From Escherichia coli (GTDB lineage: Bacteria > Pseudomonadota > Gammaproteobacteria > Enterobacterales > Enterobacteriaceae), in assembly GCF_003991155.1 (NCBI RefSeq), contig NZ_CP031294.1: 64,000 nucleotides of DNA; one strand, given 5' to 3'. The notes under the pieces are model-generated. The model was not told the DNA's origin. It saw only the letters and a list, made by a program, of their open reading frames with translations, and did not search any database. Below, piece after piece: positions 21,338 to 21,561 of the stretch. The number at the start of each line of letters is the position of its first letter. Positions within the stretch are counted from its first letter, which is position 1. The position numbers and the translations under genes were made by a program.

Positions 21338-21561
21338 GGCCGTTGTGGTGGCCGGTACTGAATCTCCGGCATACGGTGCAGCCAATTAGGACTACGGACG
21401 ATCACCGCTCGCGAAAGGGAAGATTTGCGGCCGCATTTCCCTAACATCCAAGAAAGCTATCGCATCAGTCTGCGAATCCACCACAACGGTAAGATCACTA
21501 CCTTTCGACCAGTCATTGTGCACATGAACGACGATTAACCGTAATGATCTTATCGTTGTAT

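What the first reader, a model, noticed from the sequence alone, without database searches (positions are those of the whole stretch)
21338..21492. tRNA-sized gap in the tRNA cluster bounded by a 12-bp perfect inverted repeat
CCGTTGTGGTGG (21341-21352) and CCACCACAACGG (21479-21490) bracket ~125 nt lying between tRNA-Ser and tRNA-Thr. I could not fold this into a canonical tRNA: there is no GGTTCGA-type T-loop. It may be a degenerate or intron-containing tRNA, a small ncRNA, or a mobile mini-element inserted into the cluster.
Basis: seen in the sequence. Interest (0 to 1): 0.55.

Follow-up and report, generated by a model that had tools for sequence, protein, structure and literature searches.

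The report
Unannotated phage RNA with kissing hairpins
The "gap" between two tRNA genes is not a broken tRNA: it is one copy of a widespread, strongly conserved folded-RNA module of phages that no database annotates and whose function is unknown.

Summary
The inverted repeat is real, one base off: 21340-21351 / 21478-21489, 12 bp, perfect. It is the closing helix (P1) of a 150-nt structured element read on the minus strand, the strand of the flanking tRNAs. ARAGORN and Rfam 15 (down to E=10) assign nothing to it.

The window is an E. coli SSU5-like phage-plasmid. The same module is 97.5% identical in phages P7 and D6. Its core recurs in more than 450 viral contigs, 231 phage records, 954 of 5,426 complete E. 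coli genomes and 75 species genomes reaching beyond Proteobacteria. It is never annotated.

Architecture: P1, J(AAU), hairpin P2 (GCGCA-GGCUGA-UGCGC), variable insert (6 to over 270 nt; 89 nt here), hairpin P4 (GCCGG-AGAUCAGCA-CCGGC), then P1. The P2 and P4 loops are complementary over 5 nt.

Compensatory changes support P1 (9/9 pairs), P2 (5/5), P4 (3/5) and the loop-loop pairing (3/5). G·U outnumbers A·C 36:11, which points to an RNA on this strand.

Typical sites are phage tRNA arrays, the Q-to-lysis leader, and the early-left leader of lambdoid prophages.

Best reading: a tRNA-shaped, kissing-loop small RNA excised from the precursor. Its function was not established.

The parts
21340..21489 (-). 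The whole element (150 nt RNA, read 21489 to 21340): P1 - J - P2 - insert - P4 - P1'
   Evidence: Inverted repeat. The minimum-free-energy fold reproduces P1, P2 and P4. It is 97.5% identical in P7 and D6 over 21338-21499. It fits the family consensus. The two halves are the two best hits of the family covariance model in the 64-kb window, E=0.0026 and 0.016.
21479..21489 (-). P1, 5' strand (CCGUUGUGGUG); G21478 extends it to the 12-bp repeat
   Evidence: P1 covaries freely across the family (GAGAGG/CCUCUC, GGGGCG/CGCCCC, AAGCGG/CCGCUU and others).
21340..21350 (-). P1, 3' strand (CACCACAACGG). It ends 2 nt before the first base of tRNA-Ser.
21476..21478 (-). Junction J1/2 (GAU; family consensus AAU, over 90% conserved)
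   Evidence: Alignments A1 and A2.
21460..21475 (-). Hairpin P2: UCGCA-GACUGA-UGCGA (consensus GCGCA-GGCUGA-UGCGC). The first pair is U-A instead of G-C, a compensatory change.
   Evidence: All five P2 pairs show changes on both sides in A1.
21371..21459 (-). Variable insert ('cargo'), 89 nt, itself folded (GGGAA...UUCCC hairpin around GCGGCCGC)
   Evidence: Insert length is 6 to over 270 nt across the family. This insert type occurs only in the P7 / D6 / SSU5-like set, and at about 75% identity in Klebsiella phage BUCT_49532.
21351..21370 (-). Hairpin P4: GCCGG-AGAUUCAGUA-CCGGC, abutting P1 with no linker, as a T-arm abuts an acceptor stem
   Evidence: Compensatory variants GCUGG/CCAGC, GUUGG/CCAAC, GACGG/CCGUC, GCAGG/CCUGC.
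21465..21469 (-). P2-loop bases ACUGA, which pair with the P4-loop bases UCAGU at 21357-21361 (loop-loop 'kissing' helix or pseudoknot)
   Evidence: Covaries across the family: GCUGA:UCAGC (consensus), GUCGA:UCGAC, GCCGA:UCGGC, ACUGA:UCAGU (here). 96% of cells are paired and 3 of 5 pairs change on both sides.
21357..21361 (-). P4-loop bases UCAGU, partner of 21465-21469
21478..21564 (-). Upstream 'B' hairpin (arms 21564-21541 and 21501-21478). Its 3' arm ...GAUCUUACCGUUGUG overlaps the 5' strand of P1, so the two structures compete for GUUGUG.
   Evidence: repeat I1, 24 nt, 83% complementary. The same hairpin type, with covarying arms and variable interior, precedes the element in HC6, nithesis, P7 and many prophages.
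21251..21337 (-). tRNA-Ser(UGA) immediately downstream. RNase P cleavage at its 5' end would create the 3' end of the element RNA (inference).
   Evidence: ARAGORN; RefSeq annotation.
21562..21808 (-). tRNA-Thr, tRNA-Tyr and tRNA-Asn upstream in the same array
21077..21096 (-). Intrinsic terminator-like hairpin plus U-tract, the likely 3' end of the non-coding array

Best explanation
Window 21340-21489 (minus strand) encodes one member of a large, so far unannotated family of structured phage RNAs.

Fold: an 11-12 bp closing helix P1 (the reported inverted repeat) and a 3-nt junction. Then a 5-bp hairpin P2, a variable insert, and a 5-bp hairpin P4 that stacks directly on P1. The P2 and P4 loops pair with each other over 5 nt. 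The result is a compact, tRNA-like 'tuning-fork' shape: P1 corresponds to the acceptor stem, P2 to the D arm, the insert to the anticodon arm and P4 to the T arm, with loop-loop pairing at the elbow.

Proposed mechanism: the element is transcribed together with the tRNAs as part of a non-coding array. The enzymes that process the tRNAs would then cut it out. Its 3' end lies 2 nt from the RNase P site of tRNA-Ser. The long B and P1 stems upstream are plausible RNase III or RNase E targets. The product would be a stable small RNA whose invariant P2/P4 core contacts a conserved partner, while the insert is a tolerated or payload-carrying extension.

Shown: the sequence family, the four helices, the strand, the contexts, and the cassette-like presence or absence.

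Inferred: transcription, excision, stability and trans action.

Unknown: the partner and the biological role.
For: Family and conservation:
- 97.5% identical in P7 and D6; only the ends are conserved in other phage families, such as Gamaleyavirus phage nithesis and the 47-kb phage HC6.
- 231 phage records carry it, including Stx2 phages, HK633, HK629, RCS47, Ackermannviridae, and Pseudomonas, Aeromonas and Xanthomonas phages.
- 954 of 5,426 complete E. coli genomes have a match, with nothing annotated under any of the listed matches.
- The exact 22-mer occurs in 75 species genomes, from Enterobacterales and Burkholderiales to MAGs of Verrucomicrobiota and Phycisphaerales.

Structure:
- A1 (83 sequences): 90% of cells paired, 16 pairs with changes on both sides, 0 of 500 shuffles reach the observed values, and slid controls collapse to 26-53% paired. 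P2 is compensatory at 5/5 pairs, P4 at 3/5 and the loop-loop helix at 3/5.
- A2 (55 sequences, 3' half found without using P1): 9/9 P1 pairs compensatory, covariation score 0.304 against 0.082.
- Strand: 36 G·U against 11 A·C cells in the core helices.
- The minimum-free-energy folds give P1, P2 and P4.

Context:
- Same strand as the tRNAs here and in P7, D6, HC6, nithesis and KP591P1.
- In P7 it lies inside the C1-controlled ban/tRNA operon, as annotated.
- In lambdoid prophages it sits between Q and the lysis genes, or between cI and the early-left genes.
- In lambda-N-type phages it forms the apex of the N-leader hairpin, just downstream of nutL.
- The region downstream of PR' is known to host sRNA 'morons' (PMC4104026).

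Not a known family: no Rfam 15 match at the element, even for the insert-less member L118.
Against: - There are no expression, end-mapping or stability data for any member, so transcription and excision are inferences from context.
- Orientation relative to the longest flanking ORFs is co-directional in only about 70% of loci by a crude measure.
- My alignments were assembled with detectors that reward pairing and treat G·U as a pair. This inflates 'percent paired' and may bias the G·U:A·C ratio, although the compensatory changes themselves cannot be produced that way.
- Insert-less members (L118, L140) argue against a pure 'scaffold for cargo' role.
- No partner was identified.
- The letter-perfect conservation of P2 and P4 across phyla is more than a mere stability element would need. 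It fits a catalytic or protein-binding core equally well.
- A covariance model built without the insert finds the window copy only as two half-matches.
Confidence: 0.6

Rival explanations
1. Cis-acting processing and stability punctuation. The element, with the B hairpins, is only an RNase III / RNase E / RNase P cleavage and protection module. It separates tRNAs and mRNA segments of polycistronic phage transcripts and caps the resulting ends. It has no trans function.
For: - In lambda-N-type phages the extended P1 (GCUUUGGGGUGUGGUG...CACCACACCACCAAAGC) is collinear with the lambda N-leader hairpin downstream of nutL. From my own knowledge that hairpin is the RNase III site regulating N translation (Kameyama 1991; Wilson 2002).
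- Modules are chained stem to stem at CACAAC/GUUGUG.
- The element lies between cistrons: terS/terL in L071 and terL/portal in L057.
- 42% of loci have a terminator within 250 nt downstream.
Against: - A cleavage or protection stem needs length, not letter-perfect hairpin loops and a covarying loop-loop helix conserved across phyla.
- P1, the presumed RNase III target, is the least conserved part.
- In the window nothing but a tRNA and a hairpin lies downstream to be protected.
Confidence: 0.2
2. A processive-antitermination or other RNA-polymerase-directed cis element, a functional analogue of HK022 put. It would keep transcription going through long untranslated arrays and through the terminators that follow the pL and PR' leaders.
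For: - The preferred sites are the leaders downstream of cI/pL and of Q/PR', and inside long untranslated tRNA arrays.
- An intrinsic terminator follows within 9-70 nt in about a quarter of loci.
- Extreme conservation would fit binding to a universally conserved enzyme.
- The 3' arm of the preceding B hairpin reads UGCUCUUU, the rrn boxA core (boxA consensus from my own knowledge).
Against: - HK022 itself lacks the motif.
- Many carriers already have N or Q.
- In the window the element sits near the 3' end of the array rather than in its leader.
- There is no functional test.
Confidence: 0.07
3. A new class of small self-cleaving ribozyme that processes phage transcripts.
For: - Compact pseudoknotted core, near-invariant unpaired nucleotides (AAU junction, G opening the P2 loop, AA before P4), a freely covarying outer helix, and an optional insert of any length. 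Known small ribozymes show the same pattern.
- Phage and tRNA-neighbouring contexts resemble those of hammerhead, twister and similar ribozymes (own knowledge).
Against: - No match to any Rfam ribozyme family at E<=10.
- CUGAUG is present, but the hammerhead A9 and GAAA are missing (sequence).
- There is no biochemical test and no obvious conserved cleavage dinucleotide.
Confidence: 0.06
4. A DNA-level cassette: a miniature mobile element or recombination module. The inverted ends and hairpins would act on single- or double-stranded DNA, as with Correia/ERIC-like MITEs or attC-like sites.
For: - Presence, absence and swapping at the same site among near-identical plasmids.
- Many different genomic sites.
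- The loop complementarity can also be read as a short inverted repeat, GCTGAT...ATCAGC.
Against: - P1 differs from locus to locus and covaries, so it is not a fixed terminal repeat.
- No direct target duplication is visible at the Cyrano empty site.
- No transposase or integrase family travels with it.
- G·U is much more frequent than A·C on one strand.
- The sequence does not fit the attC core GTTRRRY.
Confidence: 0.05
5. The tRNA-like domain of a phage tmRNA-like system. It would work with the tag-coding module found upstream in the same arrays to hijack or inhibit trans-translation.
For: - A tmRNA-like tag module lies at 22492-22457 here (ANEEVYLAVA**) and about 190-240 nt upstream of the element in about 20 other loci. 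Its resume-codon context and downstream pseudoknot are conserved.
- P4 abuts P1 as a T-arm abuts the acceptor stem.
Against: - ARAGORN finds no credible tmRNA: none, and one call in L039 that I judge spurious.
- There is no G3·U70, no T-loop consensus and no conserved 3' CCA.
- P1 closes on itself with the tag outside the domain.
- Most members have no tag module nearby.
Confidence: 0.04
6. A degenerate or intron-containing tRNA gene.
For: - Position inside a tRNA cluster, and four-arm topology.
- Some B-hairpin inserts elsewhere carry GGUUCGAnUCC T-arm-like pieces.
Against: - ARAGORN and Rfam tRNA, tRNA-Sec and tmRNA models are negative here.
- The 'anticodon arm' position holds anything from 6 to over 270 nt.
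- The core is conserved in about 45 of 60 scanned loci that have no tRNA nearby.
Confidence: 0.02

Closest known systems
Phage T4 species 1 RNA (rnaC) and species 2 RNA (rnaD), small stable RNAs of the T4 tRNA cluster
   Same: - Encoded inside a phage tRNA gene cluster, on the tRNA strand, next to a tRNA.
- About 120-140 nt, with 5' and 3' ends paired.
- Function unknown (annotation; fold).
   Different: T4 rnaC carries a canonical T-arm (CCGGG-UUCGAAU-CCCGG) and has no P2/P4 kissing core. No similarity between them turned up in the BLAST searches. The present family is also found far from tRNAs.
tmRNA tRNA-like domain, and the TLD-only RNA of mycobacteriophage DS6A (PMC4131195)
   Same: - A tRNA-shaped RNA without an anticodon.
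- Large foreign sequence sits where the anticodon arm would be.
- Carried by phages.
- Here it is often linked to a tag-like module.
   Different: There is no G3·U70, T-loop consensus or CCA. ARAGORN and Rfam tmRNA models do not match the element. The tag module lies outside P1.
C4 antisense RNA of P1/P7 and CI RNA of P4 (Rfam RF01695), RNase P-processed phage regulators
   Same: - Small phage or plasmid-prophage RNAs cut out of longer transcripts.
- Their paired ends mimic an acceptor stem (own knowledge).
- P7 carries both C4 and this element.
   Different: There is no Rfam C4 match at the element. In C4 the two loops pair with a target mRNA, whereas here they pair with each other.
Purine-riboswitch / hammerhead type 'tuning-fork' junctions
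   Same: A closing helix plus two equal-length hairpins locked by loop-loop contacts. The outer helix covaries freely.
   Different: The junction strand between the hairpins is not conserved and can be hundreds of nt long. There is no consistent expression platform, no hammerhead core, and no Rfam match.
GOLLD and ROOL RNAs (PMC5737381; bioRxiv 10.1101/2024.12.08.627333), and phi29 pRNA
   Same: Phage or prophage RNAs, often next to tRNAs, of unknown function. They use complementary loops, in those cases intermolecularly, to build multimers.
   Different: GOLLD and ROOL are far larger RNAs. pRNA is restricted to phi29-like phages. None matches here. Whether the loops of this element pair within or between molecules was not tested.
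Lambda N-leader RNase III hairpin
   Same: In lambda-N-type prophages the element is the apex of the collinear hairpin between nutL and the N start codon.
   Different: Lambda itself has an unrelated apex. The family occurs in many other contexts.

Membership tests
tRNA (Rfam RF00005; ARAGORN model) | Cloverleaf with a 7-bp acceptor stem, an anticodon arm and a TΨC loop (GGUUCRANYC) | tested here: not met
   ARAGORN finds only the four flanking tRNAs. cmscan at E<=10 gives no tRNA or tRNA-Sec hit in 21338-21561. The P4 loop is AGAUUCAGUA.
tmRNA (one-piece or permuted) | tRNA-like domain with G3·U70, a T-arm and a 3' CCA, enclosing a tag reading frame | tested here: not met
   ARAGORN calls no tmRNA in the window or in P7, HC6 and nithesis. 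P1 is all Watson-Crick. The tag-like ORF lies about 1 kb upstream, outside P1. Rfam tmRNA hits there score only 17-22 bits against gathering scores of 47-84.
C4 / CI antisense RNA (RF01695), isrK | Match to the family covariance model; two loops complementary to target sites in the ant/icd leader | tested here: not met
   No Rfam match at E<=10. The loops are complementary to each other.
Bacterial Y RNA (YrlA, RF02553) | Ro-binding stem plus a tRNA-like module; match to the family model | tested here: not met
   The only YrlA hit (15 bits, gathering score 69) lies on tRNA-Thr/Tyr, not on the element.
Known self-cleaving ribozymes (hammerhead, twister, twister-sister, pistol, hatchet, HDV-like) | Match to the Rfam models and conserved catalytic core | tested here: not met
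   No hit at E<=10 on the window copy or at E<=0.05 on the consensus and insert-less members. CUGAUG is present, but A9 and GAAA of the hammerhead core are absent. Catalysis itself cannot be tested with these tools.
Retron ncRNA (msr-msd) | Closing a1/a2 repeat plus a reverse transcriptase gene immediately downstream | tested here: not met
   None of the 16 commonest flanking protein families over 457 loci looks like a reverse transcriptase. The window neighbours are tRNAs.
HK022 put antiterminator RNA | Sequence and structure of putL/putR; cis antitermination of RNA polymerase | tested here: inconclusive
   The motif is absent from the HK022 genome, so it is not a put homologue. A put-like activity cannot be tested here.
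MITE-type repeats (Correia, ERIC) | Fixed terminal inverted repeats shared by all copies, and a direct target-site duplication | tested here: not met
   The terminal helix differs between loci and covaries. The empty site in Cyrano shows no duplication.
Integron attC | R''/R' core sites RYYYAAC...GTTRRRY, with an integron integrase nearby | tested here: not met
   The ends read GUUGUGG...CCACAAC, which is the inverse order and does not fit GTTRRRY. No integron integrase appears among the 16 commonest flanking families.
The family described here (provisional): P1 / AAU / P2 / insert / P4 with a P2-P4 loop pairing | (i) closing helix; (ii) 5-bp P2 with a 6-nt loop GRYYGA; (iii) 5-bp P4 abutting P1; (iv) 5-nt complementarity between the loops | tested here: met
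   All four features are present at 21340-21489 (minus strand). The U-A first pair of P2 and the ACUGA:UCAGU loop pair are compensatory variants of the consensus.

The most novel reading that the evidence does not exclude
The invariant P2/P4 kissing core is a new functional RNA class. It could be a new small self-cleaving ribozyme. It could instead be a decoy or effector aimed at a universally conserved host machine such as RNA polymerase, the ribosome with SmpB, or RNase P. Phages of many families would carry it in their most highly transcribed non-coding slots. In part of them it would work together with a phage-encoded tmRNA-like tag module to manipulate translation quality control.
Probability: 0.2. 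Interest if true: 0.9.

Novelty: new variant of a known kind. Interest (0 to 1): 0.68.

Why it matters
If the family is as undescribed as Rfam 15, RefSeq annotation and the searched literature suggest, it is one of the commonest unannotated structured RNAs of enterobacterial phages. It has matches in about one in six complete E. coli genomes, and it occurs in Shiga-toxin phages, in P7/D6 and in therapeutic-type lytic phages.

Its 22-nt stretches are identical from E. coli phages to Verrucomicrobiota MAGs. That level of conservation usually marks a catalytic core or a contact with essential host machinery.

It occupies the slots where phages place tRNAs and sRNA 'morons'. It therefore gives a concrete, easily testable handle on what phages do with non-coding RNA beyond tRNAs. 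That question has been open since the T4 species 1 and 2 RNAs were found in the 1970s.

The linked tmRNA-like tag module would, if functional, be a second surprise.

Tried and rejected
- tRNA, tRNA-Sec or tmRNA: ARAGORN and Rfam are negative at the element.
- Any Rfam 15 family: none at E<=10 on the window copy, and none at E<=0.05 on the consensus and insert-less members.
- phi80 M3 RNA (a classical RNase P substrate of about 60 nt): the phi80 Q-S region lacks the motif.
- HK022 put: the motif is absent from HK022.
- Hammerhead: CUGAUG is present but the core is incomplete.
- Fixed terminal repeat or sequence-specific GUGGUG stem: rejected once scans with P1 left free showed dozens of other P1 sequences.
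- Pas, AgvB, AsxR and STnc100 prophage sRNAs: they share the PR' 'moron' neighbourhood. However, the Pas sRNAs are reported as restricted to Escherichia/Shigella. The Rfam families (AgvB, AsxR, STnc100) do not hit the element; STnc100 hits lie elsewhere.
- Literature search by sequence strings and by tag peptides: nothing found.
- A covariance model built on insert-less cores finds the window copy only as two half-hits, because the 89-nt insert is not modelled. It found no second copy in the window.
- A purely structural regex/pairing detector gave false positives elsewhere in the window and was not used as evidence.
- A sigma-70 consensus scan found no convincing promoter for the array. It may be read through from the upstream genes.
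Full report
**1. The observation**

The window is identical in coordinates to the E. coli plasmid NZ_OW849379.1, an SSU5-like phage-plasmid. Four tRNA genes lie on the minus strand: Ser(UGA) 21251-21337, Thr 21562-21637, Tyr 21642-21728 and Asn 21734-21808.

The reported repeat is real. It sits one base lower than stated: CCGTTGTGGTGG at 21340-21351 and its perfect complement at 21478-21489, 126 nt apart.

Neither ARAGORN nor Rfam 15 places anything in the 224-nt Ser-Thr gap, at gathering scores or down to E=10. A 12-bp perfect inverted pair at this spacing is expected about 0.8 times per 64 kb by chance. The window has only three such places, all in the 21.17-22.19 kb non-coding stretch. 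On its own the repeat would be weak evidence. The comparative data settle the matter.

**2. What it is**

BLAST of the gap splits it into two modules.

- Module A (21338-21499) is 97.5% identical in the P1-like phages P7 and D6. It is about 75% identical in Klebsiella phage BUCT_49532.
- In unrelated phages (HC6, BUCT610, the Gamaleyavirus nithesis) only its two ends are conserved.

Reading these loci on the tRNA strand gives a common plan. The plan is GUGGUG-AAU-GCGCA-GGCUGA-UGCGC, then a variable insert, then AA-GCCGG-AGAUCAGCA-CCGGC-CACCAC.

The insert ranges from 6 nt to over 270 nt. Members with almost no insert (L118, L140) are about 60 nt long.

In the window the parts are as follows.

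| Part | Coordinates |
|---|---|
| P1 | 21489-21479 with 21350-21340 |
| J (GAU) | 21478-21476 |
| P2 | 21475-21460 |
| Insert | 21459-21371 |
| P4 | 21370-21351 |

The 12th pair of the repeat competes with the closing pair of P4.

**3. Evidence for the fold**

Alignment A1 holds 83 distinct cores with inserts removed.

- 90% of cells are paired, and 16 of 26 pairs show changes on both sides.
- None of 500 column shuffles reaches the observed values.
- Sliding the partners by 1-3 columns drops pairing to 26-53%.
- All five P2 pairs are compensatory, and so are three of five in P4.

The loops of P2 and P4 are complementary over 5 nt, and they covary. The consensus is GCUGA:UCAGC. Six loci have GUCGA:UCGAC, one has GCCGA:UCGGC, and the window and P7 have ACUGA:UCAGU.

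The first scans had fixed the P1 sequence, so I repeated them with P1 left free. Dozens of other P1 sequences appeared, such as GAGAGG/CCUCUC, GGGGCG/CGCCCC and AAGCGG/CCGCUU.

In alignment A2 the 3' half was located from P4 and its loop alone. There all nine P1 pairs carry compensatory changes, with a covariation score of 0.304 against 0.082 for shuffles. P2, P4 and their loops are the invariant core.

G·U cells outnumber A·C cells 36 to 11 in the core helices. This points to an RNA made from the minus strand of the window.

Caveat: my detectors counted G·U as a pair and required most pairs to form. Percent paired and this ratio are therefore somewhat inflated. The double changes are not affected.

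**4. Distribution and annotation**

- A 66-nt consensus finds 231 phage records. They include Stx2-converting phages, HK633, HK629, RCS47, P7, 157-kb Ackermannviridae, and Pseudomonas, Aeromonas, Xanthomonas and Cronobacter phages.
- 954 of 5,426 complete E. coli genomes have a match, 839 places on chromosomes and 240 on plasmids. None of the listed matches lies under an annotated feature.
- The exact 22-mer GGTGAATGCGCAGGCTGATGCG occurs in 75 of about 100,000 species-representative genomes. These are Enterobacterales, Aeromonas, Pseudomonadales, Halomonadaceae, Xanthomonadales, many Burkholderiales and Neisseriales. They also include MAGs of Verrucomicrobiota, Phycisphaerales and Desulfonatronovibrio, plus Martelella and Magnetaquicoccus.
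- No Rfam family matches consensus or insert-less members.
- Full-text searches for the sequence strings found nothing.

**5. Context**

About a quarter of the 60 viral loci scanned with ARAGORN have a tRNA in the locus, usually on the same strand.

Over 457 loci the commonest flanking proteins are as follows.

- Upstream, same strand: a CI-type repressor (67 loci), Q antiterminators (31 and 27 loci) and NinG (43 loci).
- Downstream: holin, endolysin and Rz.

The two favoured slots in temperate phages are thus the leader downstream of cI/pL and the leader downstream of Q/PR'. The PR' slot is already known to tolerate 'moron' insertions and to carry sRNA genes (PMC4104026).

In phages with a lambda-type N gene the element is the apex of the long hairpin. 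That hairpin follows nutL and ends 25-35 nt before the N start codon. Its base (GCUUUGGGGUGUG...CACACCACCAAAGC) is collinear with the lambda N-leader hairpin, which I know as an RNase III site.

Other members lie between terS and terL, or between terL and portal. 42% of loci have an intrinsic terminator within 250 nt downstream, against 17% upstream. By a crude longest-ORF test about 70% of flanks are co-directional.

In P7 the element sits inside the annotated C1-controlled tRNA/ban operon.

**6. The array around it**

Close relatives differ by whole modules.

- Cyrano joins tRNA-Thr to tRNA-Ser with 6 nt and has no tRNA-Tyr.
- The window has a B hairpin plus the element.
- B-1109 and pSJC33 have two B hairpins and a further stem-loop.
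- pSJC33 carries a variant element at the same site: P1 GUUGUGAUG/CAUCACAAU, P2 GCACA/UGUGC, P4 GUCGG/CCGAC, with another insert.
- P7 has yet other modules.

All joints fall at CACAAC or GUUGUG. The B hairpin (21564-21478) ends in the GUUGUG that begins P1, so the two structures are mutually exclusive over 6 nt.

Further upstream the minus strand carries a tmRNA-like tag-coding stretch at 22492-22457. It reads GCA AAC GAA GAA GUC UAU CUG GCA GUA GCC UAA UAA, which is ANEEVYLAVA**. Rfam tmRNA hits there are weak, at 17-22 bits.

The same module occurs in about 20 other loci, 190-240 nt upstream of the element. The tags there read ANDDVVLMAA, ANEEMYLAVA or ANDDLMMAAA. The order is fixed: leader, tag, pseudoknot, small hairpin, B hairpin, element. 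ARAGORN sees no credible tmRNA in these loci. Published surveys list phage tmRNAs only in mycobacteriophages and Bacillus phage G (PMC4131195).

**7. How it most likely works**

Shown: a conserved, pseudoknotted four-helix RNA fold on the tRNA strand. It has a free outer helix, an invariant two-hairpin core and an insert of any size. It is carried as a swappable cassette in transcribed non-coding slots of many phage families.

Inferred: it is co-transcribed with its neighbours and excised by the host enzymes that mature them. RNase P cutting at tRNA-Ser would leave its 3' end, and RNase III or RNase E would act on the B or P1 stems. The topology mirrors a tRNA: P4 abuts P1, a 3-nt linker leads to P2, and the loops pair at the 'elbow'. 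This would give a compact, nuclease-resistant small RNA.

The letter-perfect core implies a sequence-specific partner or chemistry. The insert is either tolerated or a payload.

I give 0.6 to this general statement. No specific role gets more than about 0.2. The candidates are a cis processing or stability element, an RNA-polymerase-directed antitermination device, a new ribozyme, a DNA cassette, and the tRNA-like domain of a tmRNA-like system.

**8. Comparison with the known**

The closest analogue in context is T4 species 1 RNA. It lies in a tRNA cluster, has paired ends and is about 140 nt long, with unknown function. Unlike the element, it has a canonical T-arm and no kissing core.

Other resemblances are topological only, and none passes a membership test (see the table). 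They are the tmRNA tRNA-like domains, C4/CI RNAs, purine-riboswitch-type junctions, pRNA, GOLLD and ROOL.

The element is therefore best filed as a member of a new, unnamed family within the known kind 'phage-encoded structured small RNAs associated with tRNA and leader regions'.

**9. Verdict**

- The feature is real and widespread, and I could find no annotation or description of it.
- Its function is open. Simple experiments would be decisive: a Northern blot or RACE, an in vitro cleavage test, loop-swap mutants and a pull-down.

Noticed in passing
window 22457-22492 (minus strand), with flanks about 22410-22545: A tmRNA-like tag-coding module: GCA AAC GAA GAA GUC UAU CUG GCA GUA GCC UAA UAA, which is ANEEVYLAVA** (E. 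coli ssrA has ANDENYALAA). It has a tmRNA-like resume-codon context and a downstream pseudoknot. Rfam tmRNA_permuted scores 22 bits and beta_tmRNA 17 bits, both below gathering. No tRNA-like domain is detectable. The same module (ANDDVVLMAA, ANEEMYLAVA, ANDDLMMAAA) occurs in P7, HC6, nithesis and many prophages.
   Followed up: partly
window 21478-21564; 21171-21248; 22073-22194; 22266-22354 (minus-strand RNA sense): A series of long, near-perfect hairpins (20-24 bp arms) that begin CACAAC/CACAGC and end GUUGUG/GCUGUG, with covarying arms between relatives. They chain the modules of the array. In many phages the 3' arm reads UGCUCUUUCC, identical over 8 nt to the rrn boxA core. Possible roles are RNase III stems, boxA-like signals or recombination joints.
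   Followed up: partly
window 21251-21337: ARAGORN calls tRNA-Ser(UGA). The Rfam general tRNA model misses it, and it scores 46.6 bits on tRNA-Sec, just under the gathering score of 47. The D6 record notes that tRNAscan-SE could not call its amino acid. It is an atypical phage tRNA.
   Followed up: no
L003 (phage Cyrano) 2681-2928; L244 (pSJC33-2); L245 (B-1109 plasmid); L002 (P7): The tRNA array is mosaic among near-identical SSU5-like elements. tRNA-Tyr and all spacer modules are absent in Cyrano. Extra B and stem-loop modules are present in pSJC33 and B-1109. pSJC33 has a different element variant at the same site.
   Followed up: yes
L002 (P7) 2299-2414 and L006 (nithesis) 1991-2086: Sub-threshold matches to the prophage sRNA family STnc100 (43 and 28 bits; gathering score 47). 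In both loci they lie at the downstream (3') end of the non-coding array, so another known sRNA type may share these arrays.
   Followed up: no
L031, L103, L116, L164, L208 (viral contigs): In lambda-, 21- and P22-type early-left operons the element forms the apex of the N-leader hairpin. This lies directly after recognisable nutL boxA/boxB sequences and 25-35 nt before the N start codon.
   Followed up: partly
L319-L322 (Pantoea sp. BAV 3049 chromosome); L189; L285; L312-L313: Several genomes or contigs carry two to four separate copies of the core 22-mer. This is consistent with carriage on several prophages per genome.
   Followed up: no
L039, L048, L128 (viral contigs), inside the B hairpin preceding the element: Some B-hairpin inserts contain canonical T-arm-like pieces (GGCGGUUCGACUCCGC, GAGGGUUCGAGUCCCUU), yet ARAGORN calls no tRNA at these positions. 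They may be tRNA remnants or further tRNA-like cargo.
   Followed up: no
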